NCBI GenBank assembly: GCA_013343275.1
Contig: CP046106.1
Span: 96,001-160,000 of the forward strand
Direction: 5' to 3'
Length of the DNA: 64,000 nt
Source: Candidatus Nanohaloarchaea archaeon
GTDB taxonomy: Archaea > Nanohalarchaeota > Nanosalinia > Nanosalinales > Nanosalinaceae
The notes beneath the pieces were generated by a model. It ran no database searches, was not told where the DNA came from, and saw nothing but the letters and a program-made list of their open reading frames with translations. Of the stretch, positions 27,260 through 45,915 are shown piece by piece (the stretch's first letter is position 1; the number at the start of each line of letters is the position of its first letter). Made by a program: the position numbers and the translations under genes.

Positions 27260-27334
27260 GGACCGGTAGCTTAGCCAGGTTATAGCGCCACGCTGATAAC
27301 GTGGAGATCCCCAGTTCAAATCTGGGCCGGTCCA
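27260..27334 (+). tRNA. tRNA-Ile(GAT), integration target
   Basis: Cloverleaf; anticodon arm CCACG-CTGATAA-CGTGG. Confidence 0.97.
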
Positions 27335-27350
27335 TCAACCTCTCTGTTCA
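27324..27350 (+). repeat. att site 1: core GGGCCGGTCCA (27324-27334) plus arm TCAACCTCTCTGTTCA
   Basis: Core equals the tRNA-Ile 3' end and recurs at 44487 and 45905; arm is a 14/16 inverted match to 44467-44482. Confidence 0.9.
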
Positions 27351-27394
27351 ATTACTGTAAAGTTCTTATAAGGACCTTCTTCGCCTTCTAAAAT

Positions 27395-28831
27395 ATGGAT
27401 AAAACAAAAGCAGAAGGCGTAAAGAGGGCAAAAATGGCATTTGACTCACTGGGGCAAACTAATCAAAAACTCGCAAAGAATCCAGATCTATCAGAGCATA
27501 ACAAAGAGGTTCTGGATGACTTCTTCAGAAAATCCAGAAGTGGAGGAGCAGGCTCTGCAACACTAAGAGACTACAGCTCCAGGTTCAACAAACTAGCAGA
27601 AGAAATAGATTTCCAGTTAGATAATCCCTCCCAGAGAGACTTAGAGGAATTAGTATCTAAGTTCAATACTGATGAGATCAGGAAAAACAATGGAGAGAAA
27701 TACTCAGACTACTCAAAGGATAAATTCTGGTCCACACTTTCTAAGTTCTACAACTGGTTCATCAAGAAAGAAGGCAAAGGATACAATGAGGACATAGATG
27801 GGCCTAACCTGCTAGAGGACCTGGAAATCAGTATAGATCTCTCAACAGAAGTAGATCCTGATACCAAACCCTCACCTGAACAGGTAAAGAAGGTAGCAAA
27901 CCACGCTAACAACCTGAGAGACAGAGCAATAATCCTGTTCTGTTGGGCTACAGGAACTAGAGTTGGAGAAGTTTTCACAACTCAATATGATGATGAACCT
28001 TTGACCTGGAGGGACATAGATTTCAATGGAGACAAAATGTGGGTGACTGTGGATGGCAAGACAGGGGAGAGAACCATCCCTGTAAAGACTTCCATGCCTG
28101 TTATGAAAGAGCTATGGGAGGAAAGCAATGCCTCACTGGATGACCCTGTCTTCTTCAAGCAGAATAGAACCTATTGCTGTCCCAAATGCTCAGGAGAAGT
28201 CAACTTAGCTTCAAGCAACACCACTAAAGAATACAAGAAATACAAATGCCCTGCCTGTGAATGGGAAGGAGACTATTCTCAGGTAGAGAAAGAAGTTCAA
28301 CCACTTACAGATAATGCAGTGAGAAGAATCCTGGAGAGAACTGTAGAAAGAGCAGGCCTAAATAATGAGCTTGATGATAATCCTCATGACTTTTTCAGGA
28401 AAGCCAGAGCTATATACAAGGTTAGAATAGGGAATACAGAGCATCAGCTCAGAGCTTTCTTTGGATGGAGTGAAACCAGTGATGCACCAAAACACTACAT
28501 TGCCCTGGTAAAAGAAGATCTAGAAAAGGCCCTGGCAGAGGAATATGGAGAAGAAGTAGAGTATGAAAATGGATATGATGAAGATGCATTAAGGCCTGTA
28601 GAATGTGAGAACTGTGGCAAGATCTGCTCTGCTACTGAAGACATCTGCAAAGACTGTGGTAATGGATTGACAGAGCAAGGAGAAGAACTCACTCAAGATA
28701 GTTCAGATGATCAGGATATGAGAGATTCCTTCATTGATATTGCCAGGGAGAGAGGGATGGATACAGAGGACTTTGATGAGATGCTAGACATGTCTGTAGC
28801 AGAGTTCATGGAGTTCATGGCAGAAAATTAA
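27395..28831 (+). CDS. int: Tyrosine recombinase/integrase with inserted and C-terminal Zn ribbons (SNJ2-like architecture)
   Basis: TGTRVGE (R), GKTGER (K), PHDFFRKA (H..R), FFGWSETSDAPKHY (W, Y); CPKC..CPAC insert; CENC..CKDC tail. Confidence 0.92.
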   Translation: MDKTKAEGVKRAKMAFDSLGQTNQKLAKNPDLSEHNKEVLDDFFRKSRSGGAGSATLRDYSSRFNKLAEEIDFQLDNPSQRDLEELVSKFNTDEIRKNNGEKYSDYSKDKFWSTLSKFYNWFIKKEGKGYNEDIDGPNLLEDLEISIDLSTEVDPDTKPSPEQVKKVANHANNLRDRAIILFCWATGTRVGEVFTTQYDDEPLTWRDIDFNGDKMWVTVDGKTGERTIPVKTSMPVMKELWEESNASLDDPVFFKQNRTYCCPKCSGEVNLASSNTTKEYKKYKCPACEWEGDYSQVEKEVQPLTDNAVRRILERTVERAGLNNELDDNPHDFFRKARAIYKVRIGNTEHQLRAFFGWSETSDAPKHYIALVKEDLEKALAEEYGEEVEYENGYDEDALRPVECENCGKICSATEDICKDCGNGLTEQGEELTQDSSDDQDMRDSFIDIARERGMDTEDFDEMLDMSVAEFMEFMAEN

Positions 28832-29427
28832 TCTATTCCTATGTTAGGAGCAACTGAAACTTCTTCTAAATCATCTATTTCTATTTTTTGTCTAACCCCT
28901 TTTCCTTTCAAAGGTTTAACTACCAGGTAAACTTCTTCTCCTTCTCTATTTAGAGGTTGTCTCTTCTTTATTTGTTCTTTATCGTGTTTGGAGTTATTTT
29001 CAGAATTGTGGGAATAATAATCTCCCTCTATTTTAACTATGCTAAACGCCTCTGCAGTTTCTCCTGAATAAATGTCTCTTTTTCTTTTGTAACCTGGATC
29101 TAGATGAAATTCGTCAAAAACTAGAAATGTCTTCTGCCTGCTTCCTTTACTATTAGGTCCATGTTTGATGTATAGATAAGCCTTGCACTTTTCAGCAGTA
29201 TTCCTTTCTATTATAGATAAACCTCTTGTATTCTTGATCCCAAAAGAGAATTTCTCTATAGTGCCATCCTCAACTGATATATTTCTCTTATATACCTTTT
29301 CAAGCTCTAGCTTTGGCCTTTTAAGCCATTCATTGATGAATACAGATACAAATGCACTAACAAATATTGTGATTACTGAGCTAATTCCTATGCTACTTGT
29401 TGCCAGAACTAATAGATCATCAATCAA
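28828..29427 (-). CDS. Membrane-anchored hypothetical protein (cargo)
   Basis: N-terminal TM then beta-rich domain; 4-bp overlaps with neighbours. Confidence 0.65.
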   Translation of the reverse strand: MIDDLLVLATSSIGISSVITIFVSAFVSVFINEWLKRPKLELEKVYKRNISVEDGTIEKFSFGIKNTRGLSIIERNTAEKCKAYLYIKHGPNSKGSRQKTFLVFDEFHLDPGYKRKRDIYSGETAEAFSIVKIEGDYYSHNSENNSKHDKEQIKKRQPLNREGEEVYLVVKPLKGKGVRQKIEIDDLEEVSVAPNIGID

Positions 29428-30095
29428 GGGTTGCCCTCCTGATTTAACTCATCAACCATTGAATCCTCAATTCCAAACCAGCTCTCATAAATTTTAATTG
29501 CCTGATCAACTCGATCATAACTATCTATACCTTTGTCATTCTCAGGTGAGAAGGCCTCTATGTTGTGAGCATAGTCGTTCCTATACATTCTTATTTCATT
29601 CATTACTGAATACTCATTTTCTGAGAGAATACCATGAATCCTAGCTAGAGTTAACTTTCTTTCAAAATTCATATCGTCAAGGAATGAAGTGGAGCCATTG
29701 GTTCCTTTTTCCTCTTTCACCTCTTCCATGTGTTCTTCCAGGCTTTCTGTGACAGCAGACTCAAAGAAAGTTGAAAGCAAGATAACTACTACACTGTATT
29801 CCTCTCTCAAGTAGGATTGCTTTAGAGTATTATAGTGCCAATGTTTGGGTTCAAGTTCTAGAGAACCTAAAATTTCAGAGAAATCTGGGATATCAGGGAC
29901 TAAAAGACTAGGATCTGGTATAGCCTTGGACATCTGGTCTAAAGAGTTCTGCATCTTTAAGGCTCCATGAAGTGCATCTCCAGATTGTAAGGCTCTATGA
30001 ATTACATCCATCTGGCTTTGGAGATTATTTATACCTGCTAGAAAGTTAGAATTTGAACTATTATTTTCGTTGTCTTCTGAATTATTTTCTGTCAT
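29424..30095 (-). CDS. HEPN-domain protein (putative RNase)
   Basis: VILLSTFFE helix and RxxxxH motif RNDYAH. Confidence 0.7.
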   Translation of the reverse strand: MTENNSEDNENNSSNSNFLAGINNLQSQMDVIHRALQSGDALHGALKMQNSLDQMSKAIPDPSLLVPDIPDFSEILGSLELEPKHWHYNTLKQSYLREEYSVVVILLSTFFESAVTESLEEHMEEVKEEKGTNGSTSFLDDMNFERKLTLARIHGILSENEYSVMNEIRMYRNDYAHNIEAFSPENDKGIDSYDRVDQAIKIYESWFGIEDSMVDELNQEGNP

Positions 30096-30544
30096 TTAGA
30101 CACCTCTTGATGGTTTTTCTCCACTAAGATAAATCCTACTAATCCTGCTAAGAGGACTAATAGAATCATAATTACTCGAATAAGCAAAGCTAAGAATTCT
30201 CCAAGTAGCTCTCCTGTTGTACCTAACGATCCAATCTCATAGCTGGATGAGGTAGAGACAATTATTCCTCCTGCTACACCTGCTACAATGCTTTTGGCAT
30301 ATTTTAGAGTTTCTTCTGTGAAATCATGGTATATATCGAAGATTGAAAGATTTAGCTGAACAAGAGCTGAACTTAATGAGAGTACTACTAAAAAGACAGC
30401 AAGATATATTGCTAAAACTGGAGGTATAACTTCTGGGAAATATTTAGCTCCTATATAGAGTAATCCTTCGATTAATGCAAAAATTATCAGTACCTTGGTA
30501 AATATAGAGAGTTCTAAGTTCTTCAGCCTGCTAGAGATATTCAC
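30092..30544 (-). CDS. 4-TM membrane protein (cargo)
   Basis: Hydrophobic profile; coupled to the HEPN gene. Confidence 0.65.
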   Translation of the reverse strand: MNISSRLKNLELSIFTKVLIIFALIEGLLYIGAKYFPEVIPPVLAIYLAVFLVVLSLSSALVQLNLSIFDIYHDFTEETLKYAKSIVAGVAGGIIVSTSSSYEIGSLGTTGELLGEFLALLIRVIMILLVLLAGLVGFILVEKNHQEVSK

Positions 30545-30652
30545 AAATGGTAATTGAAACTATACTATTTTCAGTTTTTACATGGAATAAGCTAAAAGCT
30601 CCTTCTTTATGGTAGGAGCAGATATTAGTTAGTTTATAATGAATTAATCTAT

Positions 30653-31774
30653 ATGGTTGAGGAGCAATTTAAGAAAAATCCTGTTGAGGTTGTTGAGAAA
30701 AATTTAGATGAGATCTCTCAGGACATGGAAGATCTAGATAAATGGGAGAGAGAATTATTTTCTAGTATAAGTCATGAGGGCAGAGTAAGACCTTCCAGCG
30801 TGGAGAAAAGTATGGAGGCAGGAATTATTGGAGTCCCAATGGATGAAGAAGAGGAAAAGATTATTGAAAATATTATAGAGACAGTTGAGGAAAGTATATT
30901 GCCGAAATTAACTACTATAGATAATCTTTCAGAAAGATTTGCTGTTTACAGAAACAAAGATTCTGGATCTTTGGAAGAATTTGGAAGTCTGTGGGGTAAG
31001 GTAAGCAGTTTGAAGTCTCATGAGTTTGAAGCGTATCTAAAATCCTATTATGATTTGAAGCAAAAAGGTGAAACTAAGTTTGTACCTTATGACTTAGCAA
31101 GGATAAAAAATGATTTTTTTGAGTTTAGTAAGACATTCAAATCAAGATACAAAGGCAGAAATATTGGTAAGAGAGATTTGATACGCACAGAGGACATAGC
31201 TAATATGAAAGAGAGCATAAGTAGGAGTGCTAATGAGAGTTGCTTATCACTGTATAAGAGAAAGTATGGGCAAGATGCACTTCCAGAATTGGAAAAGAGA
31301 CTGACAATGACTGACAATTATAATCATAATGAGGTAGAGGAGGCACTAAAGGACTTATTTTGGATAACTGGAATGAGAACTATCAGGGTAGGAGGAGAAA
31401 ATAGGCCTGGTTCAGATCTGGATGTAATATCTTTCTCTGTAGTTGATGATTTTGGGGTTGCTGTCGAATCTACATCAGGTAATCTCTCAGAAAAGAAGGT
31501 GGGGCAACTACTTAAGCATCCTTCAAAACTACAAAGGGAGCTTGAATCTAAGGTCTATCCCTTGCTTGTTTGTCATGACTATGATGACTTAGAAAATCTT
31601 GATATTGGGGAAAAAGAAGGTTTGAGAAAATGTGCTGAGAATAATGTGGCTATATGGACAAAAGAAACTCTAGAAGAAATACTGGGCCGTCTTGCAACAG
31701 GCAGGCTCAGGCCTGACGGCATTAAGGACTTGTTGGAAGCGTCCATCCCTAATTCTGGAGCTAAAGGCAACTAG
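30653..31774 (+). CDS. Protein with C-terminal PD-(D/E)xK restriction-endonuclease-like domain
   Basis: EEALKDLF..GM..GGENRPGSDLDVI....VAVESTS (ExK variant ExT). Confidence 0.6.
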   Translation: MVEEQFKKNPVEVVEKNLDEISQDMEDLDKWERELFSSISHEGRVRPSSVEKSMEAGIIGVPMDEEEEKIIENIIETVEESILPKLTTIDNLSERFAVYRNKDSGSLEEFGSLWGKVSSLKSHEFEAYLKSYYDLKQKGETKFVPYDLARIKNDFFEFSKTFKSRYKGRNIGKRDLIRTEDIANMKESISRSANESCLSLYKRKYGQDALPELEKRLTMTDNYNHNEVEEALKDLFWITGMRTIRVGGENRPGSDLDVISFSVVDDFGVAVESTSGNLSEKKVGQLLKHPSKLQRELESKVYPLLVCHDYDDLENLDIGEKEGLRKCAENNVAIWTKETLEEILGRLATGRLRPDGIKDLLEASIPNSGAKGN

Positions 31775-32391
31775 CTCTCTTTGTCGAAGAAGGACTCCAG
31801 ATCTGCAGTTGCCTTAACCTTCTCTGTGGTAGTTCCTTGATTGTCTCTTATATTGAATTTCAGGGTGAATGTGAGGGCCTTAAAATCTTCCACAATTTTT
31901 CCATGATGTCTCACTGCTCCTGCAGGGAGAACTACTTTTCCTCTTATATGATCTAAGCTCTGAATAGTGTCTCCAATACCTTTGCTCTTTCTGCGAATCT
32001 TTTCCTCTTTTATCTGCAAGGTATTAGAGGTTATCTCTTTTTCCTGCTTGGGTGTAACCTCTACATCTGCTAAGTCTACTCTGACTACTTTCCCTTTCAT
32101 CTCTCCATGGTTTACTGCCTTGAATGGTAGAGCGTATTTTCCTGGATAATCTTTCTCCCAGTTAGGTTTGCCTTCAGATCTTATCTTTAGCTCATCTCCT
32201 GGTTGAATCTCTATATCTGATGATGGTTTCTTGAAGTGGTTGAGGTATAGAGATGCAGATACTATTCCAAAAGTCAAGATTGAGAGGAGGGAGCTATAGT
32301 TCTCCCAGACTCCAGGGAGGAAAATATTAACTAGAATTAGTAAAACTACTAAACATCCAATTCCTCCAAGAATTATCCTGTCTGAGTCCAT
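31771..32391 (-). CDS. Two-TM protein with soluble beta-sandwich domain
   Basis: Two hydrophobic N-terminal helices; AVNHGEMKG. Confidence 0.6.
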   Translation of the reverse strand: MDSDRIILGGIGCLVVLLILVNIFLPGVWENYSSLLSILTFGIVSASLYLNHFKKPSSDIEIQPGDELKIRSEGKPNWEKDYPGKYALPFKAVNHGEMKGKVVRVDLADVEVTPKQEKEITSNTLQIKEEKIRRKSKGIGDTIQSLDHIRGKVVLPAGAVRHHGKIVEDFKALTFTLKFNIRDNQGTTTEKVKATADLESFFDKES

Positions 32392-32525
32392 GGGCGTAAT
32401 TTTGGAGACAAGACTTTACCTTCTTTGGGTAGGGGTTGGAGGCCAGATAGGTGCATAAACAAGATCAAGGAATGAATTATAGTAGGAATAAAGGGTAGGA
32501 AATACTTAGTTCTCTCATTCAAGGA

Positions 32526-32846
32526 TTAGGCCTTGATTTTAGTCCACTGGTTTCTTGGATTCTTATGCTCTGAGTCAATGCCTTCTATATACTGAGTTAG
32601 CTTGCCTTTTTCTCTCCTGAAACTATCCTGCTCTATCTCACCAAACCAGACCTGCCTATAACCTCTCTGACCTTTCTTTACAATCATCAAATTATACTTG
32701 CCAGTTCCAAAACGATCTCTCACTTTCTTAACCAGTTCAGATTCCCTCTTTATCCTACTATCATCTATCCTGATAGTATCTATGTTCTTGAACTGCTTAG
32801 GACTTAGCTCTTTAGCCACTATCAGTTTAGCATTGTTATCTGCCAT
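32526..32846 (-). CDS. Hypothetical basic protein, last gene of the element backbone operon
   Basis: AGGTG SD-like motif upstream; CG-poor codon use like the backbone. Confidence 0.65.
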   Translation of the reverse strand: MADNNAKLIVAKELSPKQFKNIDTIRIDDSRIKRESELVKKVRDRFGTGKYNLMIVKKGQRGYRQVWFGEIEQDSFRREKGKLTQYIEGIDSEHKNPRNQWTKIKA

Positions 32847-33020
32847 GATGACACCTTCTCAAATTATATTTTCTTTTTTGATTTGGAGATCTCTGGCTTC
32901 CAGGTCTTCTCATGTGCGTGCGTATGCGTGGATAACCAGGATTTTTCTTTGGCTGATTCAGTGCTGATGATGTTGAGGGTTTCTCCAGGAAGGGCCTCCA
33001 GGAGGAGAGGGCTGTTGATG

Positions 33021-34499
33021 TCATACAGATAGCTCATAGAAAACTTCTCTTCCTTCTCTGGTTTTCTCTATCAATCCTTCTTCTCTCCAGTCTGACAGGT
33101 GATTTCTGGCCATTGTCTCTCCTATATCCATTACTTGCTCCACTTTCTTTCTCTTGAACTTTTGCTCCTTGACAAGCTCTCCTGGAATGCTCACATAGTC
33201 ATTGGAGTTCTCTCCATCGCTCTCTTGCTCCTTGATCTTCTCCTCTACTCTCTCATTATGCTCTTCTACACTCTCCTGGATCTCTTCTCTTACCTGTTTA
33301 ACTTCATTATCCCAGTTCCTGAGTTCTCCATCAAGTTTCAACCATTCCTGTCTAAAGTTCTCTCCAGGTTCTCTATGCCTGGCTCTTGTAGGATAACTCT
33401 TGAAGTCTTTAATCAATGTCTCTGGAGTCCAGAGATAGAAATAATGATCTTCAAGGCCTTTGATCCTCTCCTTATCCTGTTTGGAAAACTCTTCTTTAGT
33501 TCTCTCATCAAGAACTGTCTGGATTCCTTTAGCAGTATTCAACCTGCCAGTAAACAGGTAGTTTAACTGACTTCTAGCTATATCTGAAAGCTCCTCAGGG
33601 TTCTGAGTATCAATGAAAACACTTACTCCCATCTGCCTGCTTTCCTTCAAGAACTCCTCTATAATCTCTCTAAAGGCCTCTGAACTACCTCCATTACCAT
33701 TATCATCTTTCAACAGTTTATGACCTTCTCTAATGAAGATAACAAGGTAAGGCTCTATATCCCCCTGTTTCAATAGTTCCAAGATTCTCTGCAAGATATG
33801 GACTACAGTGAACTTAGTGATTTTATCTGACTGAACTTGAGCAGTCTCCAATATCATTCTCCTGTCCTCACTGTTCAACTCCTTAAACAAGTTGAGTGAG
33901 AGAGGACTGTTTTCACTGGTTACAAGCCTGTGATCTGCAAGCTCTATCAGTGAGTGCTGTATAGGTCTCTTACCTCTCTTAGTTGGAGAACTGATCTTGA
34001 TCCCTGAACTACTTTCTATATAGTCCTGATCTGGTAGCTCCTCAGAGAGCTTCAATAGATCTGCAACATTAGGACTATCCATCTCCTGAATATCGTTTAT
34101 CATGGCGTTAAACAAGGCCTCATGGCTTTGTGATACATCTCCAAGAAGTGCTTTCAAGGAGTCCTCTGAGAGAGTCTTGATAGGTATAGTGAATGGTTGA
34201 ACTGGCTCTGGTTGAGTAAGATTCAAATCAGGTGTAAGTGGTTTGTAGATCTTTCCAGGAAAGGCCTTAGGCTCAGGGTTCTCAGGGTCCTGCCATACCT
34301 CATAGTTTGATCCTTCAGGTAGAACTGAGAATGAGCCTTCTATCTTTGATGAGAATATATCTACTACTTTGACATTCTCCTTTTCCTGGAATACTTCCAT
34401 AGCTCTCTCCAGGATCATTGATTTACCAGTTCCACTTTGTCCTGTTACTCCTGCTCTAACAGGTTTCTTACTGGGATGTGGGAATCTGACCTGTTTCAT
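33021..34499 (-). CDS. HerA/FtsK/VirB4-superfamily ATPase with C-terminal wHTH
   Basis: Walker A GQSGTGKS; atypical Walker B IFIREGH; ESRQMGVSVFIDTQNP...RSQ. Confidence 0.8.
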   Translation of the reverse strand: MKQVRFPHPSKKPVRAGVTGQSGTGKSMILERAMEVFQEKENVKVVDIFSSKIEGSFSVLPEGSNYEVWQDPENPEPKAFPGKIYKPLTPDLNLTQPEPVQPFTIPIKTLSEDSLKALLGDVSQSHEALFNAMINDIQEMDSPNVADLLKLSEELPDQDYIESSSGIKISSPTKRGKRPIQHSLIELADHRLVTSENSPLSLNLFKELNSEDRRMILETAQVQSDKITKFTVVHILQRILELLKQGDIEPYLVIFIREGHKLLKDDNGNGGSSEAFREIIEEFLKESRQMGVSVFIDTQNPEELSDIARSQLNYLFTGRLNTAKGIQTVLDERTKEEFSKQDKERIKGLEDHYFYLWTPETLIKDFKSYPTRARHREPGENFRQEWLKLDGELRNWDNEVKQVREEIQESVEEHNERVEEKIKEQESDGENSNDYVSIPGELVKEQKFKRKKVEQVMDIGETMARNHLSDWREEGLIEKTREGREVFYELSV

Positions 34500-35424: not shown

Positions 35425-35426
35425 TT

Positions 35427-38708: not shown

Positions 38709-39044
38709 TCATTGGATCAAATCACCATTACTTGGAATACGCTTTCTGTGGTTGACTGGAGCTTTTTGCAGGCCTACAGTTCTTCTGCAGTTAGGACAGG
38801 CCCAGTTCAAAAGGTCTTTCTGAGAATCTAGTTGATCTATCAGGTGTTCAGATGCAGGATCTTGGTTAAGGAATTGCTTGAGCTTCTTCTCAAAAACTGC
38901 TCTATGAAATACTGCCTCACATTCTGGGCATTGCAGTCTTCTAGGAGCTTCAAATCTGAACAGCTCCAGGACTCTTTCAGTTTTCTCACTGGACTTGAAC
39001 TCAAAGTTTGTTGGAGTCTCTACCATTGTCCTCATCAGAATCAC
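38709..39044 (-). CDS. Zn-finger protein
   Basis: CPEC...CPNC. Confidence 0.65.
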   Translation of the reverse strand: MILMRTMVETPTNFEFKSSEKTERVLELFRFEAPRRLQCPECEAVFHRAVFEKKLKQFLNQDPASEHLIDQLDSQKDLLNWACPNCRRTVGLQKAPVNHRKRIPSNGDLIQ

Positions 39045-39274
39045 CTCTCCATCTCTGGAGCTGTCTGTTCTCCTGGTTTTGAGTTCATTAATTGTCTGAA
39101 GGCCATGTCAAGAAGATCTCTAACTACTTGGTTTCTGGATTTGTCTTCTGAGGTCTCTGCCAGATCTCTGATTATCTCATCTTGGTAGTTATCTATGTAG
39201 AAACCTACTTTGACTTTCTCTGATTCCTTATTCTGTAATGTAAAGCCTTTTTTAGGGTCTCTAAGCTGATACAT
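39041..39274 (-). CDS. Ribbon-helix-helix regulator
   Basis: KVKVGFYIDNYQDEIIRDLAE...KSRNQVVRDLLD. Confidence 0.75.
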   Translation of the reverse strand: MYQLRDPKKGFTLQNKESEKVKVGFYIDNYQDEIIRDLAETSEDKSRNQVVRDLLDMAFRQLMNSKPGEQTAPEMER

Positions 39275-39413
39275 TGTTAGAGCTTACCTCATTGCCAGGG
39301 CCACCAACCCTGGTATCTTCAGATTTTTCTTCTCTGACTTCCTGGAGCTTCTTCTCCAGGTGTCTTTCTAGCTCCTCTCTACTAGCGCCGTCGTTTTCAG
39401 ACTCTGTTCTCAT
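39261..39413 (-). CDS. Putative 50-aa protein, first gene of the leftward operon
   Basis: Manual translation MRTESENDGASREELERHLEKKLQEVREEK... Confidence 0.45.
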   Translation of the reverse strand: MRTESENDGASREELERHLEKKLQEVREEKSEDTRVGGPGNEVSSNNVSA

Positions 39414-39449
39414 ACTTAGTTCTTACAGCTAACATCATCTTATATTCGA

Positions 39450-39467
39450 ACTAACATAGATGTTAGT
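39450..39467. promoter_or_regulatory. Palindromic operator between divergent promoters
   Basis: ACTAACAT-AG-ATGTTAGT; half-sites CTAACA at 39429 and 39523. Confidence 0.6.
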
Positions 39468-39538
39468 AAAATAGAACTTCTTTAGAGGGTTTTTTCCTGT
39501 GAGAAAGACTTAAAATAATAGACTAACAAAAACTTACT

Positions 39539-40732
39539 ATGGAAGATCTGAAAACTGAAAGCGATCTGATTCCTCTAGGCTCAGTTAAAGGAGACCAGGT
39601 GAAGTTCGAACTTGCCTACATCTATACTCTAGGATTAATGCAGGAAGAAATGAAGGATCCATATCAGGATCGAATAATTGAGGAAATGAAACCGCATTTA
39701 AGGAAAATATATGGGGAAGAATGGGTTGTTAACCAAAGTAAGCCTAAATTACGGCAGAAGATTAAAAGACTCGGAGGAGGCTCAGATCTTGTCGAAAAAA
39801 CGAGAGATGAAAGAAAAGTATATCATAAGCTTTCTACAAGGGGAAAAGAGTTCTACAAGAATATTAAGCCAATATTTTCCAGTTTTTCCTCAACAGACAT
39901 TGAAGAAGCGATAATTGACGAAATGGAGACATATATCCATGGTGATCATCACTCTGAATATTACGGGCATGGATATACCTTAGACGACTTCAAGGACTTG
40001 GTGGAAAGGGATTATGATGGAGAAAGAGATTTCGACAAACTTAAGGAAGATGTGGCAACCAGGCTTGGGGTAGGGCCATCTAGAGAAGTATTTGAAAACC
40101 AGTTCTATCAGGTTTTCTCTGATATGCGAGAACAAGCTGTTCCTCGAAAAATGGCTACTTTCCAATCTAGAAAAAACCTCATTATAGAGGCTTTTGAAGA
40201 GCAAAATTCCTCAAAAGAATTGCTTTCATTTGAAGAGATTGGAAATAAGACTGAAATTCTAGATTATCTGCCAAGAAAGGTTTTGAAAAGAGATGTAGAT
40301 AGGTTGCAAGGAGTAGAACCATCTTCAGATAGGATAAAGAAGGCTGTAAAGCAATATGGAAAAAAGGAAGATGAAATACATGTGGCTGATGTAAATGAAG
40401 TATTGAGGCTCTTTAACGACTATGAAAGAGCTGAAGAGATTTTAGAACAGGCAATAAGTAATGATGCTATTTATTTAGAGAGGGAAGGTTCAAAAATCAA
40501 GTGGAAATCTTACGAGTCTCGAAGAAAAGAGAAAGAGAGTAAAGAGGATAAAGAGAATAATGGATACTTAAATTCGCATTCCTACGGTGTCGAAGATTTA
40601 GGTTTCGCTAAAAAGCATCAACTCAAACCTGTTTTGAAAGAAAAGAAAGGTAAATACAAGCTGAGTGATATGGCTAAAGAGTTCCATAGGTCAAATGTTT
40701 ATCTTCCTAACAGGGATATAATCGGTCAATAA
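39539..40732 (+). CDS. Multi-wHTH-like protein, candidate repressor or initiator
   Basis: KLRQKIKRL..DLVEKTRDERKVYHKLSTRG wing motif; divergent from the backbone. Confidence 0.6.
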   Translation: MEDLKTESDLIPLGSVKGDQVKFELAYIYTLGLMQEEMKDPYQDRIIEEMKPHLRKIYGEEWVVNQSKPKLRQKIKRLGGGSDLVEKTRDERKVYHKLSTRGKEFYKNIKPIFSSFSSTDIEEAIIDEMETYIHGDHHSEYYGHGYTLDDFKDLVERDYDGERDFDKLKEDVATRLGVGPSREVFENQFYQVFSDMREQAVPRKMATFQSRKNLIIEAFEEQNSSKELLSFEEIGNKTEILDYLPRKVLKRDVDRLQGVEPSSDRIKKAVKQYGKKEDEIHVADVNEVLRLFNDYERAEEILEQAISNDAIYLEREGSKIKWKSYESRRKEKESKEDKENNGYLNSHSYGVEDLGFAKKHQLKPVLKEKKGKYKLSDMAKEFHRSNVYLPNRDIIGQ

Positions 40733-40752
40733 GAGAAGCACTATTTCATATA

Positions 40753-41142
40753 TTATCTCTTTCTATATCTCCACTTATTCTCTCCAGGCATCAAAGGGGA
40801 TAGAATCTTCTTATTGTAGTTCTTACTACTTTGATTTAGCTTCTTCAATCCTTTTTTAGCAACACCTGCAGAGAATCCATAGTCAGCTCCTAAAGCAGTT
40901 GCTAAAGTCTTGAGATTCTTCATTGCTAGACCCATTCTGGTTACTTCAGGACCTATTCTGTCAGTATTATGTTTGAATGTCAGAAGGAACTTATCTTCTT
41001 CTGAGTGTAGCCTGCCTGGTAGATAGTGTCTGTTCAGTGCTAGAGTTCCTTTACTATTCTTCGCTATTTCTAATCTGCCTGCAGGTTTGGCCTCTTGGGG
41101 AACTTTCTCTTTTATTCCAATTTTATTGTAAATTCTTCTCAT
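40753..41142 (-). CDS. Basic hypothetical protein
   Basis: ATGA-coupled to the AbiTii gene. Confidence 0.45.
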   Translation of the reverse strand: MRRIYNKIGIKEKVPQEAKPAGRLEIAKNSKGTLALNRHYLPGRLHSEEDKFLLTFKHNTDRIGPEVTRMGLAMKNLKTLATALGADYGFSAGVAKKGLKKLNQSSKNYNKKILSPLMPGENKWRYRKR

Positions 41143-41930
41143 TCTTGAACCTCCTTTGCTCTAGAAACAAAGTCGTTAATTTCTCTCCTAGCTCCATCTA
41201 AGAGAGATTCTAACTCGCTTACTTTGGTTATGTAAGGAACTTTTTCTCCTGGGTTTACTCCAAGCTCATCCACCATTACCTGCATTGGAGGTGCTTTCAT
41301 CATTATTTTGTCTGACTCAGCTTTCTCAACTGCTGACTCTACCATATCTAGAGGTTGGGAAATATACATTTCTAGAGGTAGCTCCTCTATCTGTCCACTA
41401 TCGTCCATTAATCTAAATTTCATGGATAATTTCCTGTAATCTTTGTAGTAGTGAGCAGAAGTATCTTCTACCTCTGTTACTCCACTGCTTTCTTCATCTC
41501 TGAATCCATGAACCTCTTTCTCCAGCCATTCAACTTCTTTTTTCATATCTAACTGCTTAGCAAGCCTTAAAGCCATTCTAGCTATAGTGGAGACATCTTC
41601 ATCTGAGTCTATCTTGCTTTCAATTTTCTTTAGAAGTTTTCTTTCATCAGAGGTCTTTTCTTCTTCCTCTTTTCCAGATTCTTCCTCAAATTTCTGCTCA
41701 ATCCTGTCAAAGTTAATGTCTCCTTGGGCTTGGAATGCGTTAACTCCTTCAGCATCTTCAAATATCTGCTCTTGAGACCTATCTATCAGGTTTTTGATCT
41801 CATAACCTACTTTACCTACTCCAAGAAATCCTAGAGTGGTAACAATTAGAGATAGTATTCCTATGGCATGCTCTTGTAGGTATACTGCTAGTGAAATATT
41901 TTCACATCCTTTGGGAATTTTAATATTCAA
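41139..41930 (-). CDS. AbiTii-domain protein with N-terminal TM
   Basis: IARMALRLAKQLDMKKEVEWLEKEVHGF...DYRKL matches the AbiTii pattern (LxxAxxLAxxL..WxxxELxGY..YR). Confidence 0.7.
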   Translation of the reverse strand: MNIKIPKGCENISLAVYLQEHAIGILSLIVTTLGFLGVGKVGYEIKNLIDRSQEQIFEDAEGVNAFQAQGDINFDRIEQKFEEESGKEEEEKTSDERKLLKKIESKIDSDEDVSTIARMALRLAKQLDMKKEVEWLEKEVHGFRDEESSGVTEVEDTSAHYYKDYRKLSMKFRLMDDSGQIEELPLEMYISQPLDMVESAVEKAESDKIMMKAPPMQVMVDELGVNPGEKVPYITKVSELESLLDGARREINDFVSRAKEVQE

Positions 41931-41944
41931 AGTAGAGTTTTCTT

Positions 41945-42346
41945 TTAAGTTCCAAATTCTTCCTTGTAATGATCATAACTCGTTAGAATATCCATTGACA
42001 ATCCTATCAACATGCAAATACCATTATTTTCTACACCTGTCTTTCTTTTCAAGTTTCTCTTACTTGCTAGACCTCCCCACCGCTGCATGAGCCATTCATG
42101 GTAGGAGTCCATATTTCCTTGTTTTATAGTAGTTAAATCTATTTCCTCTTCAAATTCTTCCTCAAGTAATGCCGTTACACGGTAGTTCTCAATGGCTTCT
42201 ATAGTCTTATCTAAGTCTAGTTCTTCTCCTTTATCGAGCAATATATTCAGTCGACTAACATGTTCTCGCCATAGACTTGGATATTCCATGAAATATCCTC
42301 TAAACCCGAAATTTAAGACTCTTTTGACTATTGTGGTTAGATGCAT
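41945..42346 (-). CDS. Hypothetical protein
   Basis: Acidic ORF; true start probably at MEYPSLW. Confidence 0.55.
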   Translation of the reverse strand: MHLTTIVKRVLNFGFRGYFMEYPSLWREHVSRLNILLDKGEELDLDKTIEAIENYRVTALLEEEFEEEIDLTTIKQGNMDSYHEWLMQRWGGLASKRNLKRKTGVENNGICMLIGLSMDILTSYDHYKEEFGT

Positions 42347-42491
42347 ATGATTAGAAATTCTCTGTATCGATTACAGTAGCAAATAAATCCCCTGACCTTT
42401 GATTGCGCTCTCCAATTATAGTAATCTGTCTGTTAATTGATAACTCTCCAATATAGACGACCTTTCATTACAAGTCCTTTCTGAGTTAGGT

Positions 42492-43172
42492 TCATTCTTC
42501 GTCACCAAAAACTTTGGACTTAAAGCGGGATTTATAGTAGCCTATAGGGCCAGCAGGCGTTGTTGTTTCTTCTATTTCAAAACCTAAAAATTCTGTGCTA
42601 AATATTATGAAGAAAGAATACAACATTGCTACAGAGAAAGTCGATGATGCGCCCAAAATAAGCAAGTAGGTGAAGACAAAAATTATTGCAGTTTCTGTGC
42701 CCTGAAAAAGGGTTAATTCAGCCAACGTCATCCCAAATTCTACAGTAGTTGAAACTTCTAGGTCCTGAGGTATTAAGTTAGCTCCTGCTATAATAACTGC
42801 AAAAATGTGTAACAAAAGTATCTGACCTCCTGTATACAGAAAGTTATGAGCTGTTCTAACATAGTGATACTCCTCCAGGCCACTAGAAAATTTGCTCAGA
42901 GGCTCTTCAAATGCCAGGATAACACTTCCTGCTGTAAAACACAGGAAAGAAAGATTGAATATAAGGCTCCCAAATCTCTGAAATTCTATCACGGCTATAC
43001 CAAGGGCTAAAAGTGCAGTGACTTGAATTAAGAGAAAAAATATGTTTGCAAAAACCTTGTGCGAGAGAAATTCTTTTGCTATCTGCTTCCAAGTCTGGAG
43101 ATCTCTCAGAGACCCATATTCATCCTTTCTCCAGCTCCACGGCGATCTTACTTTTCTATTATCATCACTCAT
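42492..43172 (-). CDS. Multi-TM membrane protein (cargo)
   Basis: 4-5 hydrophobic segments. Confidence 0.65.
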   Translation of the reverse strand: MSDDNRKVRSPWSWRKDEYGSLRDLQTWKQIAKEFLSHKVFANIFFLLIQVTALLALGIAVIEFQRFGSLIFNLSFLCFTAGSVILAFEEPLSKFSSGLEEYHYVRTAHNFLYTGGQILLLHIFAVIIAGANLIPQDLEVSTTVEFGMTLAELTLFQGTETAIIFVFTYLLILGASSTFSVAMLYSFFIIFSTEFLGFEIEETTTPAGPIGYYKSRFKSKVFGDEE

Positions 43173-43689
43173 CTTCAGTTTTCTGAGCCTCCTTAGACAC
43201 TAATGGAATAGTCCATTTTGTTTGATTGGCAACATCTTCAAGGTTATCGCCATTTATTTCCAGTGCTACATATATTACTGCTATCATGAATATAGTGACT
43301 ATAATTGTGGTAAGATAATCTGAACCCGTAGGCTGCCCTCTAAGAAGTAAAGTTGTAATTTGAACAAAGGAGAAGGCGACTAGTGTAATTGTGAACAAGG
43401 TCTCCACTGCGGAGGACTTTTTCTCCTGCTCCATCAATTTCTGATTAAACTGTCTATTTTTCTCAATTTCCTCTAGGAGCGTGTAGTCTTGGAGCTTATC
43501 TATGCCATTATGAGTTAGAACTATGCTATGATTCCAATCAACTAAGTTATAGTCCTCAAGATATTCTATATCCGCTTTACTCACTTCTCTACCATCTACT
43601 TCATCGAAACTCCTGATAGTTGGGGCAGCACCAGTTCTCTCCTTGTGATTCCATATTTCTCTCAGAATTTTTAGGTGTCTCTCATCCAT
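43165..43689 (-). CDS. wHTH plus two-TM protein
   Basis: HLKILREIW..IEYLEDYNLVD..LTHNGID followed by two TM helices. Confidence 0.6.
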   Translation of the reverse strand: MDERHLKILREIWNHKERTGAAPTIRSFDEVDGREVSKADIEYLEDYNLVDWNHSIVLTHNGIDKLQDYTLLEEIEKNRQFNQKLMEQEKKSSAVETLFTITLVAFSFVQITTLLLRGQPTGSDYLTTIIVTIFMIAVIYVALEINGDNLEDVANQTKWTIPLVSKEAQKTEDE

Positions 43690-44256
43690 TTAGACCACTT
43701 CAAAACTCTTTACTACAGTTTCTGTATGCTTTTCCCCATCCTCCAAGTATTCGATCAGGATTTGAACTCTCCATTCCCCTTTTTTGGTAGGTTTATACCA
43801 AGAACTGTAAGGATTTGAAGCATTAGTTGTATTATATATCTTGGTGCTTCTTGTCTGCCATCCTTTATGTCTCGTATTGCCATTTAACCAGTCTACAGAT
43901 ACATTATAGGGGAGTTCCTTGGTGTTCCATACCCTAAAATAGATTGTAATATTGTCTCCTGGACTATAGATTTCTCTATCTCCAATTATCTTGGAGTTCG
44001 ATATTTTTAGCTCAGGTTCATATTCTGTCTGAGGTTGTTCTGCCCAAACTGGCTTTATGTAAGGCTCTGAGCCAATAAAATCTATATCAGGAAGTTCTCC
44101 AGTAACATAGACTCCTGCTATAAGATGTCTGGCATAAGGGGAAGTAAAAGGAACAGTAATAATAAATACGATCAAACCACCTATAACAGCAGAAATGAGC
44201 TGTTTTCTAGATACATGAGAGAAAAACTTGTCCTTTAATTTACTATAATATCCCAT
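43690..44256 (-). CDS. Membrane-anchored Ig-like extracellular protein
   Basis: TM, then YSPGDNITIYFRVWN...GEWRVQI..KSFEV; several NxT/S sequons. Confidence 0.65.
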   Translation of the reverse strand: MGYYSKLKDKFFSHVSRKQLISAVIGGLIVFIITVPFTSPYARHLIAGVYVTGELPDIDFIGSEPYIKPVWAEQPQTEYEPELKISNSKIIGDREIYSPGDNITIYFRVWNTKELPYNVSVDWLNGNTRHKGWQTRSTKIYNTTNASNPYSSWYKPTKKGEWRVQILIEYLEDGEKHTETVVKSFEVV

Positions 44257-44399: not shown

Positions 44400-44466
44400 A
44401 CAGTTATGGTTACTGTTAAAAAGTTAAGAACTTATTGCGTTAATAGAAGGTAGGAAGGCCTTATAA

Positions 44467-44513
44467 TAAACAGCGAGGTTGAAGAAGGGCCGGTCCACTA
44501 CTCTACGTGTTCA
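44467..44513 (+). repeat. att site 2 (hybrid junction): arm TAAACAGCGAGGTTGA, core at 44487-44497, arm CTACTCTACGTGTTCA
   Basis: Core identical to the tRNA-Ile 3' end; left arm pairs with 27335-27350, right arm pairs with 45885-45900. Confidence 0.9.
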
Positions 44514-44854
44514 TTTACATTACTCGCTTTCTGAACCACTTCTTCGTCAACCTAAATAAACCGCTCGAAAAACTACGCTCAACCACGGGCGAAGAGGTTC
44601 CGGCAAGTGGGGAAAAGCGATTCTTCTCTTCAGAGCGAGAGAACAAGCTATCAAGAGAAGGAGCTGAATGATGCCTATGACTTAGGAAACTCTGTGAGCA
44701 GGTTCCCTCCTCTGCGAGGATTAGATCCTATGCGCGCGCAGACCTCAAAATTTCTGGAATCTTCGTAATAAATCAGAAGTTTACGTTCTATGCGCATAGG
44801 CGGGCGTAGAAATAATGAGAAATCTTATAGTATTTATTTTATACTCTTGTAGAT

Positions 44855-45556
44855 ATGGGGCAGAGTAGGAGACAAAACGAGCCAGAAGTAGAGGATATTA
44901 ATTTAGATGAAATACCTCCAATTGGAGCTCCTATTCTTTCACTAGGCCTTCTCTATGCGGCAGTTACAGTAGGTTTTGGAGATCTAATGATAAACTTAGT
45001 AGTCGGTGGCGCAGGAGTAGTGCTCTTGGGATTTTTCGCTTTCAAGCTTGGAACATTGTACAAACAGCGAGGCCCTAAAAGAGCAGTTAGATGGGCGACA
45101 ACCGCGCCCGTCGATAGAGTAGAAGACTATTCTCTCGACCTCCAAACAAGCTCGGGAGTAGAGAAAACAGAGGAAGGGATAACTCTAGAGCACTTGAGAG
45201 AGATAGATCCTTATGATTTCGAAGAGTTCGTAGCGAAGGTATGGAGAGGTAGAGGATATGAAGCAGAAGTAACACAGGGAAGTCAGGATCGAGGAATCGA
45301 TGTTGTAGCAGAGAAATCAGAACCATACAACGAGAAAGAGCTTATACAGGTAAAGCGGAAAGGAGAAGGAAACAAGGTTAGCGCTCCAACAGTTCGGAAA
45401 TGTTCTGGACTGAAAAACAAGAACGGGGTCGATAAAGTATTGGTAGTTACTTCAACAGACTTCACAGCTCAGGCAAAGGAAGAAGCCGAAGATTATAACT
45501 TAAAATTAGTAGATGGACGTAAACTTTTGGAATTATACGAAGATAACGTAGAATAA
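44855..45556 (+). CDS. Membrane-anchored Mrr-family (Mrr_cat) endonuclease
   Basis: IDPYDFEEFVAKVW..GY, QDRGIDVVA, LIQVKR, VTSTDFTAQA, LVDGRKL; two N-terminal TMs. Confidence 0.9.
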   Translation: MGQSRRQNEPEVEDINLDEIPPIGAPILSLGLLYAAVTVGFGDLMINLVVGGAGVVLLGFFAFKLGTLYKQRGPKRAVRWATTAPVDRVEDYSLDLQTSSGVEKTEEGITLEHLREIDPYDFEEFVAKVWRGRGYEAEVTQGSQDRGIDVVAEKSEPYNEKELIQVKRKGEGNKVSAPTVRKCSGLKNKNGVDKVLVVTSTDFTAQAKEEAEDYNLKLVDGRKLLELYEDNVE

Positions 45557-45573
45557 TAGGTGAAAAATACTTT

Positions 45574-45816
45574 ATGGGAGTTGTAAAGCGCGACGGCAAA
45601 TGGAGACTTGAAAAGAAGAAAGAAGGAGTTTACCTAGTGACGGAGAGAGGCGAACAAAAGGCAAAAATCATTACAGGAGAATATGAGCCCTCAGGCCCAA
45701 TGAATGATGAGAGAAATGATATGATGTCCCAAGTGATAGAGGTTAGAGATTTCGAAGAGGCGAAGAAAGAGTTCAAGAGTTTCGCCTCAGGAGGATCTTC
45801 CGGAGGCCTTTTCTAA
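45574..45816 (+). CDS. Small hypothetical protein in the mini-element
   Basis: AGGTGA SD upstream. Confidence 0.7.
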   Translation: MGVVKRDGKWRLEKKKEGVYLVTERGEQKAKIITGEYEPSGPMNDERNDMMSQVIEVRDFEEAKKEFKSFASGGSSGGLF

Positions 45817-45884
45817 TGGAAATAATGGTATAACTATCTATGGATTTTGACAGCTTTGATGCCACTCAGAAGAAGAGGTTCATC

Positions 45885-45915
45885 TGAACACGTACCTCAG
45901 ATAAGGGCCGGTCCA
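45885..45915 (+). repeat. att site 3: arm TGAACACGTACCTCAG plus core at 45905-45915
   Basis: Followed by AGCTTTTT, the probable original tRNA trailer and terminator. Confidence 0.88.

What the first reader, a model, noticed from the sequence alone, without database searches (positions are those of the whole stretch)
27324..45915. Tandem att array at tRNA-Ile: autonomous element plus an integrase-less cassette with the same attP geometry
Seen: GGGCCGGTCCA at 27324, 44487 and 45905. Rejoining each unit's ends gives the same layout, TRAACA-N14-core-N10-TGTTCA. Unit 1 arms TAAACAGCGAGGTTGA (44467-44482) and TCAACCTCTCTGTTCA (27335-27350) match 14/16 as an inverted repeat. Unit 2 arms TGAACACGTACCTCAG (45885-45900) and CTACTCTACGTGTTCA (44498-44513) match 12/16, with 10 contiguous. 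Each unit's arms match each other better than they match the other unit's arms. A U-tract after core 3 looks like the original tRNA trailer. Inference: a tRNA-anchored stacking system in which non-autonomous gene cassettes are excised and inserted in trans by the neighbouring integrase, functionally similar to an integron or satellite array. I do not know of one described in a DPANN archaeon.
Basis: partly seen in the sequence, partly recalled or inferred. Interest (0 to 1): 0.88.

Follow-up and report, generated by a model that had tools for sequence, protein, structure and literature searches.

The report
Stacked mobile elements at tRNA-Ile
Two mobile DNA units sit one behind the other at the end of a tRNA-Ile gene in a tiny salt-lake archaeon: a complete 17-kb element, and a 1.4-kb leftover that has lost its integrase but keeps both recombination sites and a working defence-like gene pair, a pattern already known in bacteria and other archaea.

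Summary
The last 11 bases of tRNA-Ile(GAT) occur three times in the window, and those are the only copies in the 916-kb genome. Rejoining each unit's ends gives significant inverted repeats in one shared register.

Related genomes show this is the attP layout of a whole integrase family, not a local oddity. About 20-24 bp of inverted repeat flank a 7-bp centre, GGGCCGG, with TGAACA/TGTTCA 14 bp away on each side.

Unit 1 (17.2 kb) is an integrative element with an intact integrase and an MCM helicase. Unit 2 (1.4 kb) has no integrase. It does keep both arms, the family's purine-rich box and a remnant of the integrase leader.

In relatives, small att-flanked units demonstrably arise by deletion. 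One 2.75-kb unit is 98% identical to a 6-kb element minus 3.3 kb that include the integrase; others carry truncated integrases.

Unit 2's arms were found in 0 of 69 other genomes of the order. Its gene pair also occurs in other backbones and is under purifying selection.

The best reading is tandem site-specific accretion followed by decay, leaving a CIME-like remnant. Trans-mobilisation is possible but untested. An integron-like cassette system is not supported.

The parts
27260..27334 (+). tRNA-Ile(GAT). Its last 11 nt (27324-27334) are core copy 1, the attL side of the array.
   Evidence: ARAGORN; Rfam tRNA at 68.4 bits; pattern search.
27335..27350 (+). Unit 1 right arm (C' half-site), N10 + TGTTCA.
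   Evidence: It matches the unit 1 left arm as an inverted repeat at 14/16.
27351..27394 (+). Conserved leader upstream of the integrase start (CTTCTTCGCC...AAT-ATG).
   Evidence: Alignment of 13 post-core sequences.
27395..28831 (+). Unit 1 tyrosine integrase, 478 aa, with two zinc-ribbon-like Cys clusters and an acidic tail.
   Evidence: PF00589 at E=7e-13. The putative catalytic R, H..R, W and Y columns are invariant in 6 of 6 aligned homologues. Weak XerA-like matches.
28828..44256 (.). Unit 1 cargo and replication genes: weak, sub-threshold HEPN/DUF4145 matches 29424-30095(-), HerA-like ATPase 33021-34499(-), wHTH 35860-36177(-), MCM helicase 36251-38557(-), AbiTii 41139-41930(-), and many ORFs with no family. 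GC is 0.393, against about 0.46 in the flanks.
   Evidence: Pfam; PADLOC; PHROGs; GC.
44444..44458 (+). Purine-rich box at the left end of unit 1.
   Evidence: A box of this kind lies about 27-43 nt before the distal core in all 15 left ends printed.
44467..44486 (+). Unit 1 left arm (C half-site): TAAACA + N10 + 4 nt.
44487..44497 (+). Core copy 2, the junction between unit 1 and unit 2.
44498..44513 (+). Unit 2 right arm (C' half-site), N10 + TGTTCA.
44527..44558 (+). Remnant of an integrase leader in unit 2. The start codon is lost and no integrase ORF follows.
   Evidence: 27/33 match to the leader of G011:C117 (z=7.8, 0 of 500 shuffles) and to the G001 remnant (z=4.5, 0 of 500). tblastx finds no integrase-coding remnant at E<0.01.
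44855..45556 (+). Unit 2 cargo gene 1: 233-aa protein with a hydrophobic N-terminal part and an Mrr_cat restriction-endonuclease domain.
   Evidence: PF04471 at E=3.9e-29. PADLOC PDC-S02 and type IV REase models. dN/dS 0.13 against the G011:C43 copy.
45574..45816 (+). Unit 2 cargo gene 2: 80-aa ORF with no family, always next to gene 1 or its variant.
   Evidence: No hits in Pfam, PADLOC or NCBIfam. Homologues in G011:C43, G022:C59, G004:C7 and G047:C5. dN/dS 0.04.
45867..45878 (+). Purine-rich box at the left end of unit 2.
45885..45904 (+). Unit 2 left arm (C half-site): TGAACA + N10 + 4 nt.
45905..45915 (+). Core copy 3, the distal attR end of the array, followed by a T-run.
45916..47207 (.). 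Strain-specific stretch between the array and conserved host genes. Its status is unknown; it may be an older remnant.
   Evidence: No homology to G002 before window position 47208. The 218-aa ORF was found in 0 of 5 relatives. No degenerate core (up to 2 mismatches) lies here.

Best explanation
The 3' end of tRNA-Ile(GAT) is the chromosomal attachment site for a family of archaeal integrative elements. Their roughly 475-aa tyrosine integrases recombine a simple, lox/dif-like attP. This site has two inverted half-sites of 20-24 bp (outer hexamer TGAACA, 10 variable bases, then usually TGGA) around a 7-bp centre, GGGCCGG, taken from the tRNA.

Each integration duplicates the 11-bp core, so successive integrations stack units head to tail. 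In this window, unit 2 probably integrated first. It then lost its integrase and most of its other genes by deletion, keeping both half-sites and a selected Mrr-like + ORF80 gene pair. Unit 1, an MCM-encoding element with an intact integrase, later integrated at the tRNA-proximal core.

Unit 2 is therefore a decayed, att-flanked remnant. It is the archaeal counterpart of a bacterial cis-mobilisable element (CIME).

Shown: the repeats, the arm symmetry, the family-wide geometry, the deletion origin of a homologous small unit, the leader remnant in unit 2, and purifying selection on the cargo.

Inferred: the 7-bp overlap and cleavage positions, the order of integration, and any present-day mobility of unit 2.
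For: 1. Three cores, all on one strand, and the only copies in the genome.
2. Arm inverted repeats of 14/16 and 12/16, against null frequencies of 1e-5 and 8e-5.
3. The same register appears in units of G054:C61, G055:C47 and G011:C117 and in metagenome contig L078. G004:C7 and G047:C5 show it shifted by 1 nt. The 4 nt before the core are TGGA, the complement of the core's TCCA, in G054:C61, G011:C72, G004:C34, G011:C117 and G049:C54.
4. In 43 of 50 genomes of the family the 11-mer is present, usually once. Multi-copy, mostly same-strand arrays occur in G011, G004, G055, G054 and G047.
5. Among 7 units with both ends on one contig, the integrase frame is uninterrupted in 3 (unit 1, G011:C117, G055:C47), interrupted in 1 (G004:C7), truncated in 1 (G054:C61) and absent in 2 (unit 2, G047:C5).
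6. The G047:C5 unit is 98% identical over 2,685 bp to the distal part of G004:C7. A further 78 bp at the tRNA-proximal end match at 92%, and 3.28 kb that include the integrase are missing.
7. Unit 2 keeps the integrase leader and the purine-rich box.
8. The same-genus genome G002 has a nearly empty site. G001 has only an integrase N-terminal remnant with stop codons.
9. A metagenome contig carries the unit-1-like left end plus core followed by different DNA, so unit 1 relatives occur without unit 2.
10. Tandem integration and integrase loss are documented for archaeal elements (PMC8371274, passages). The three-step CIME accretion model is described in PMC5704250 (passage).
Against: No parent element with unit-2 arms and an integrase was found: 0 of 69 other genomes of the order, and only 1 metagenome hit to the generic attP pattern, which is of another arm type.

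No coding remnant of an integrase is detectable in unit 2. The deletion origin of unit 2 itself therefore rests on a 32-nt leader match plus analogy.

The outer 10 nt of unit 2's two arms are still perfectly complementary, and its genes are under purifying selection. That also fits a unit that is still maintained as a mobile entity.

The Mrr/ORF80 pair lies in the opposite orientation in the G004:C7 and G047:C5 units. Unit 2 is therefore not a simple derivative of that particular element.

The cleavage sites and the 7-bp overlap are inferred from symmetry only.
Confidence: 0.7

Rival explanations
1. Active trans-mobilised cassette system. Unit 2 and similar small units are non-autonomous cassettes that are routinely excised and inserted by the integrase of a neighbouring element, building a stack of defence genes at the tRNA.
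For: Unit 2 has both arms, with the conserved hexamers in the correct register and a perfect 10-nt outer inverted repeat. Two integrase-less units in different genera (unit 2 and G047:C5) carry an ORF80 homologue next to the Mrr gene or a related protein sharing only its N-terminal part. The G047:C5 unit is 98% identical to DNA in another genus. The cargo is under purifying selection. The only other PF00589 match in the genome is a weak one (20.7 bits, below the cut-off) elsewhere, so unit 1's integrase is the only candidate helper.
Against: Unit-2 arms were found in 0 of 69 other genomes. The Mrr+ORF80 pair in G011:C43 (91% nt identity) has unrelated flanks with no core within 437 or 905 bp, so the genes move without these arms. 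The inner 10 nt of the unit 1 and unit 2 arms share little; by eye only 7 of 16 left-arm positions agree. Small units are demonstrably deletion products or carry integrase stubs. The array holds only two units.
Confidence: 0.17
2. Unit 2 never had an integrase. It arose when a resident gene pair, or a fragment of another element, was placed between two cores by homologous or illegitimate recombination between tandem elements (module shuffling).
For: The gene pair is found in at least three other backbones. One is an element at tRNA-Cys with an unrelated integrase (G022:C59). Homology to G011:C43 stops at 44821 and 45809, inside unit 2. Module exchange between tandem integrated elements is discussed in PMC8371274 (passage).
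Against: Both ends of unit 2 carry family-specific end features in the right order: right arm + leader remnant, and purine-rich box + left arm. This is what a shrunken element would retain.
Confidence: 0.1
3. Chance or artefact: the extra 11-mers and arms are coincidental, or are produced by misassembly.
For: The core is only 11 bp. One of 100 window shuffles reached 3 matches at up to 1 mismatch.
Against: The three cores are the only copies in 916 kb, all on one strand and within 18.6 kb. The arm inverted repeats are far beyond the null. Independent genomes show the same architecture. Eleven bases are too few to misjoin an assembly.
Confidence: 0.02

Closest known systems
CIMEs (cis-mobilisable elements) and site-specific tandem accretion of ICEs/IMEs in Streptococcus and other bacteria (PMC5704250, passage read; it cites Pavlovic 2004 and Bellanger 2011, which I did not read)
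   Same: [quoted passage not shown] It sits in tandem with an integrase-bearing element at the 3' end of a conserved gene. It arose by integration, then decay, then a second integration.
   Different: The host is a DPANN-like archaeon, not a bacterium. The helper is an MCM-encoding element with no recognisable conjugation genes. Cis- or trans-mobilisation has not been demonstrated here.
Tandemly integrated archaeal elements and integrase loss after integration (review PMC8371274, passages; Thaumarchaeota survey PMC6563490, passages)
   Same: Tyrosine-recombinase elements re-use the same tRNA site and form arrays. Short att sites occur (8-26 bp in Thaumarchaeota). Some integrated elements lack an integrase. 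MCM-encoding cryptic integrated elements are known.
   Different: Those passages do not describe DPANN or nanohaloarchaeal hosts (0 mentions in PMC8371274). They also do not describe this integrase clade or its 24-7-24 symmetric attP with fixed hexamers.
Simple tyrosine-recombinase sites such as archaeal XerA/dif (11-6-11; PMC8371274 passage); loxP and FRT are recalled from memory
   Same: Two inverted half-sites flank a short central spacer where strand exchange would occur. The integrase's best NCBIfam and PDB matches are XerA-like.
   Different: The half-sites are longer (20-24 bp), with a variable middle. The partner site attB (tRNA plus trailer) lacks the hexamers. The enzyme is 478 aa with zinc-ribbon inserts, and its scores are far below the XerA cut-off (55.9 against 220 bits).
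Integrons
   Same: Only a superficial likeness: a tyrosine recombinase next to a head-to-tail series of units.
   Different: See the membership test. There is no IntI-type integrase, no attC-type cassette site and no promoterless single-ORF cassettes, and the array has only two units.

Membership tests
Tyrosine recombinase (Phage_integrase, PF00589) | Catalytic domain match above the curated cut-off | tested here: met
   49.1 bits against a cut-off of 27.1, E=7e-13, residues 162-372.
Tyrosine recombinase (Phage_integrase, PF00589) | Conserved catalytic Arg, His-x-x-Arg, Trp/His and Tyr. My assignment of these motifs is from recall. | tested here: met
   The columns WA[TS]GxR[VI]GE, PH...R..RA, FFGW and P[KG]HY are invariant for R, H, R, W and Y in 6 of 6 aligned integrases. 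They are also present in the open frame of G055:C47.
tRNA-targeting integrative element | Direct repeats identical to the tRNA 3' end bound the insert, with the integrase next to one end | tested here: met
   The integrase starts 60 bp after core 1.
tRNA-targeting integrative element | Empty site in a close relative | tested here: met
   G002 (same genus) has the core, then about 675 bp, then homology to window position 47208 onward. The conserved GTPase lies downstream in 5 of 5 relatives.
CIME (cis-mobilisable element) | Flanked by attL and attR | tested here: met
   Cores at 44487 and 45905, with cognate arms at 12/16.
CIME (cis-mobilisable element) | No integration or transfer genes of its own | tested here: met
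   The only ORFs of 50 aa or more given to a family search are the Mrr-like gene and ORF80. There is no integrase similarity at E<0.01.
CIME (cis-mobilisable element) | Derived by decay of an autonomous element | tested here: inconclusive
   A leader remnant is significant and the homologous case G047:C5 against G004:C7 is proven. No parent of unit 2 itself was found.
CIME (cis-mobilisable element) | Excised or transferred together with, or by, a related element's integrase | not testable with these tools
   No sequencing run holds the locus; the best share of words was 0.12.
Integron | IntI-type integrase with adjacent attI | tested here: not met
   The best NCBIfam match is XerA_Arch at 55.9 bits against a cut-off of 220. 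The attachment site is a tRNA 3' end.
Integron | Cassettes each ending in an attC imperfect palindrome and usually consisting of one promoterless ORF | tested here: not met
   The units are bounded by identical 11-bp cores. The inverted repeat is split between the two ends of a unit. Unit 2 has two genes and 340 bp of upstream non-coding DNA.
Phage/virus satellite (P4-, PICI-, pSSVx-like) | Own integrase or replication module, plus genes that hijack a helper's particles | tested here: not met
   Unit 2 encodes only an Mrr-like nuclease and an 80-aa ORF. Nanohaloarchaeal satellites described so far are circular Rep-encoding molecules (10.1101/2025.02.15.638363, abstract and passages).

The most novel reading that the evidence does not exclude
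In these reduced-genome archaea the tRNA-Ile site works as a site-specific defence-gene dock. Integrase-less mini-units, which keep only the two half-sites and a selected nuclease module, are excised, exchanged between genera and re-inserted in trans by the integrases of co-resident MCM elements. The shared TGAACA-N14 geometry, rather than the variable inner arm sequence, is what the integrases recognise.
Probability: 0.17. Interest if true: 0.7.

Novelty: new member of a known kind. Interest (0 to 1): 0.4.

Why it matters
The finding gives a clean, comparative picture of how integrative elements enter, stack and decay in very small archaeal genomes of the DPANN type, where such loci have hardly been described.

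It defines a testable attachment site for a new clade of zinc-ribbon-bearing tyrosine integrases: a 24-7-24 symmetric site on a tRNA 3' end.

It also shows that a defence-like gene pair outlives the element that brought it in.

The principle is not new. Tandem accretion, integrase loss and CIME-like remnants are established in bacteria, and tandem integration and integrase loss are established in other archaea.

Tried and rejected
Read-level test of excision. No public run holds the locus; the best share of sampled words was 0.12. Laying the contigs of 4 runs on 26800-46600 gave only fragments of related elements. Nothing bridged an empty site or a circle junction. This says nothing for or against mobility.

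attP pattern scans (AACA-N14-core-N10/11-TGTTCA):
- Viral contigs: 0 hits.
- Metagenome contigs: 1 hit, L078.
- Genome contigs: 2 hits. One is the contig already held as G054:C61. The other is a Clostridiales MAG, which I take to be chance.

The integrase as a query in viral contigs gave 9 pattern hits, none confirmed.

Search for an integrase remnant in unit 2 by tblastx and short-word blastn against 6 integrase regions and 2 small units. There was no integrase hit at E<0.01; the only significant hits were the ORF80 and Mrr N-terminal matches to the G047:C5 unit.

Other checks that gave nothing:
- Degenerate further cores after 45915: none at up to 2 mismatches.
- Rfam on 26000-47500: only the two tRNAs.
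- PHROGs on 10 unit-1 proteins: only the integrase, the ATPase and MCM matched. No capsid-like hit, so whether unit 1 is a virus or a plasmid stays open.

I rejected the integron and satellite readings on the membership tests. I rejected chance.

Literature. Searches (Nanohaloarchaeota + integrase/tRNA/integrated; nanohaloarchae + provirus + integrase) listed 7 and 10 papers. I read only abstracts in the listings, and the outline and passages of 10.1101/2025.02.15.638363. None of what I saw describes this array.

The taxon is not verified by a marker tree. 'DPANN/nanohaloarchaeal-like' rests on four things: the genome size, the salt-lake metagenome hits, the very acidic integrase, and one relative's record title, 'uncultured archaeon'.

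Full report
**The observation**

The 11-mer GGGCCGGTCCA occurs at 27324, 44487 and 45905 on the + strand. These are the only copies on either strand of the 915,886-bp single-contig genome in which the window lies. The first copy is the 3' end of tRNA-Ile(GAT), 27260-27334.

Rejoining the ends of each unit gives inverted repeats of 14/16 (unit 1) and 12/16 (unit 2, with 10 contiguous). In 200,000 random pairs of genome positions scored in the same register, 12 or more matches occurred at 8e-5 and 14 or more at 1e-5. Within-unit arm matches over 24 nt (17 and 14) exceed the cross-unit ones (12 and 10).

**Contents of the two units**

Unit 1 (27335-44486, GC 0.393 against about 0.46 in the flanks) starts 60 bp after the tRNA. 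It encodes:
- a 478-aa tyrosine integrase (PF00589);
- a HerA-like ATPase;
- a winged-helix protein;
- an MCM helicase;
- an AbiTii protein, plus an ORF with only weak, sub-threshold HEPN/DUF4145 matches;
- many ORFs with no family.

The integrase's presumed catalytic R, H..R, W and Y are invariant in 6 of 6 aligned homologues. Two Cys clusters resembling zinc ribbons are conserved as well. Its nearest named relatives are XerA-like, but far below the family cut-offs.

Unit 2 (44498-45904, GC 0.427) has two credible genes. One is a 233-aa protein with a hydrophobic N-terminal part and an Mrr_cat nuclease domain (PADLOC PDC-S02 and type IV restriction models). The other is an 80-aa ORF with no family.

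The genome has only one other, weak PF00589 match, elsewhere on the chromosome.

**The site in relatives**

In 50 genomes of the same family, 43 carry the 11-mer, mostly once. Arrays of several copies, mostly on one strand, occur in G011 (5), G004 (5), G055 (4), G054 (3) and G047 (3). A few extra copies, such as G055:C112, G047:C1 and G013:C17, have no att-like context.

Integrases 40-68% identical to the window's are found in 5 relatives. In G011 and G004 they sit next to the same core. In G003 a 48% relative sits at tRNA-Pro.

The same-genus genome G002 has a nearly empty site: the core, about 675 bp, then homology to window position 47208 onward. A conserved GTPase lies downstream of the site in 5 of 5 relatives tested. 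The same-genus genome G001 has one core followed by an integrase N-terminal remnant with stop codons.

**The attachment-site architecture**

I printed every junction. The left ends of 15 units carry T[GAT]AA[CGT][AT] exactly 14 nt before the core. The right ends carry the complementary hexamer 10 nt after it (11 nt in two units).

The core's last four bases are TCCA. In five elements the 4 nt before the core are TGGA. The site is therefore best read as symmetric: about 20-24 bp of inverted repeat on either side of the 7-bp centre GGGCCGG.

This is the layout of a simple tyrosine-recombinase site. For comparison, archaeal dif is 11-6-11 (PMC8371274 passage). The placement of strand exchange at the borders of the 7-bp centre is my inference.

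One metagenome contig (L078) carries left arm, core, right arm and an integrase start in one piece, with 16/24 arm complementarity. This is either a free attP or a junction of two like elements.

Two further conserved features frame the site. One is a purine-rich box about 27-43 nt before the distal core in all 15 left ends, including both window units. The other is a leader (CTTTTGAA..CTTCTTCGCC..AAT-ATG) between the right arm and the integrase start.

**How small units arise**

Seven units have both ends on one contig. Their integrase status is:

| Unit | Size | Integrase |
|---|---|---|
| Window unit 1 | 17.2 kb | open frame |
| G011:C117 | 10.2 kb | open frame |
| G055:C47 | 4.0 kb | open frame |
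| G004:C7 | 6.0 kb | interrupted |
| G054:C61 | 2.2 kb | cut down to residues 10-173 |
| Window unit 2 | 1.4 kb | absent |
| G047:C5 | 2.75 kb | absent |

The G047:C5 unit is 98% identical over 2,685 bp to the distal part of the G004:C7 unit. It shares that unit's proximal 78 bp at 92%, and it lacks 3.28 kb that contain the integrase. This is a direct example of an integrase-less, att-flanked unit made by internal deletion. It is also an example of near-identical element DNA in two genera.

Unit 2 shows no coding trace of an integrase. However, positions 44527-44558 match the integrase leader of G011:C117 at 27/33 (z=7.8, 0 of 500 shuffles). They also match the G001 remnant (z=4.5, 0 of 500), at the expected distance from the core and with the start codon gone. 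Unit 2 thus retains both family-specific ends around a small cargo.

**The cargo**

The Mrr-like gene plus ORF80 (window 44821-45809) is 91% identical at the DNA level to G011:C43. The flanks there are unrelated, and no core lies within 437 or 905 bp.

The pair also sits, pseudogenised, inside an 8.4-kb element at tRNA-Cys with a different integrase and a 14-bp direct repeat (G022:C59). A variant of the pair lies in the opposite orientation at the distal end of the G004:C7 and G047:C5 units.

Against the G011 copy, dN/dS is 0.13 for the nuclease gene and 0.04 for ORF80. The pair is therefore a selected module that moves between backbones independently of unit 2's arms.

With up to 3 mismatches, unit 2's right-arm and left-arm sequences were found in 0 of 69 other genomes of the order.

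**Interpretation**

The simplest account is tandem site-specific accretion followed by decay. The bacterial version of this model, ending in a CIME, is described in PMC5704250 (passage). Tandem integration and integrase loss are recorded for archaeal elements in PMC8371274 (passages) and PMC6563490 (passages).

Three things suggest, but do not prove, that unit 2 came first and that unit 1 integrated later at the tRNA-proximal core:
- unit 1 lies next to the intact tRNA;
- unit 2's GC content is closer to the host's;
- a metagenome contig carries a unit-1-like left end and core followed by other DNA.

Unit 2 could still be excised, either together with unit 1 or by unit 1's integrase. In each such reaction at least two of the four half-sites would be unit 1's own or the host's. 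That is a hypothesis, not a result.

**What is not supported**

An integron- or satellite-like system is not supported. The integrase is not of the IntI type. There are no attC-like cassette ends. Unit 2 is not a promoterless single-ORF cassette. The array has two units. No further copies or alternative cargos with unit-2 arms were found (see Membership tests).

**Limits**

- No reads of the organism itself were available.
- The parent of unit 2 was not found.
- Cleavage positions are inferred.
- The taxon label rests on indirect evidence.
- Supplementary files of the papers were closed.

Noticed in passing
window 27298; L082 (G002:C39), L026 and L063 (G011), L059 (G047:C5), L060 (G055:C47), L068 (G046:C74): In several relatives the sequence upstream of ACGTGGAG (tRNA position 38 onward) is unrelated to the window's 5' half, and ARAGORN calls no tRNA-Ile there. 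Metagenome contigs also diverge right after 27298. This fits an intron at the canonical 37/38 position in the tRNA-Ile of relatives but not in this genome.
   Followed up: partly
window 45916-47207: The 1.29 kb between core 3 and the conserved host genes has no counterpart in G002. Its 218-aa ORF was found in 0 of 5 relatives. It has no family hits and no degenerate core, and may be an older remnant.
   Followed up: partly
L023 (G004:C7) and L059 (G047:C5): The element DNA is 98% identical over 2.7 kb between genomes of two different genera, which implies recent transfer between genera.
   Followed up: partly
L063 (G011:C38) and L026 (G011:C117): The same tRNA-Ile 3' exon, with the same preceding bases, is followed by an element on one contig and by a T-rich trailer-like sequence on another. 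This may reflect occupied and empty sites coexisting in that population.
   Followed up: no
window 44444-44466 and 45867-45884; 27351-27394: A purine-rich box and AT-rich, TATA-like stretches lie before the left arm, and a conserved leader lies after the right arm. A promoter might therefore read across attP into the integrase gene only in the circular form. This is speculation.
   Followed up: no
window 45208-45573: Contigs of two salt-lake runs skip 364 bases here, removing the nuclease domain and joining the N-terminal part to ORF80. This resembles the shorter protein found in G004:C7 and G047:C5.
   Followed up: no
L024 (G022:C59) 5163-13600: An 8.4-kb element at tRNA-Cys(GCA) is bounded by a 14-bp direct repeat. 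It has its own 417-aa integrase and a pseudogenised Mrr gene plus ORF80.
   Followed up: partly
L066 (G001:C1:738000-753000): In the same-genus complete genome about 14 kb separate tRNA-Ile from the conserved GTPase. There is only one core and an integrase stub, which suggests an old island that has lost its distal repeat.
   Followed up: partly
window 27395-28831: Across 6 homologues the integrase family carries a conserved CxxC...CxxC cluster inside the catalytic domain, a second cluster near the C-terminus, and an acidic tail.
   Followed up: partly
window 28456-44497, against run X1: One 8.6-kb metagenome contig joins a unit-1-like integrase 3' end to a unit-1-like left end, with 8.0 kb of other DNA between them in place of 15.5 kb. 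Unit-1-type backbones therefore carry variable cargo.
   Followed up: no
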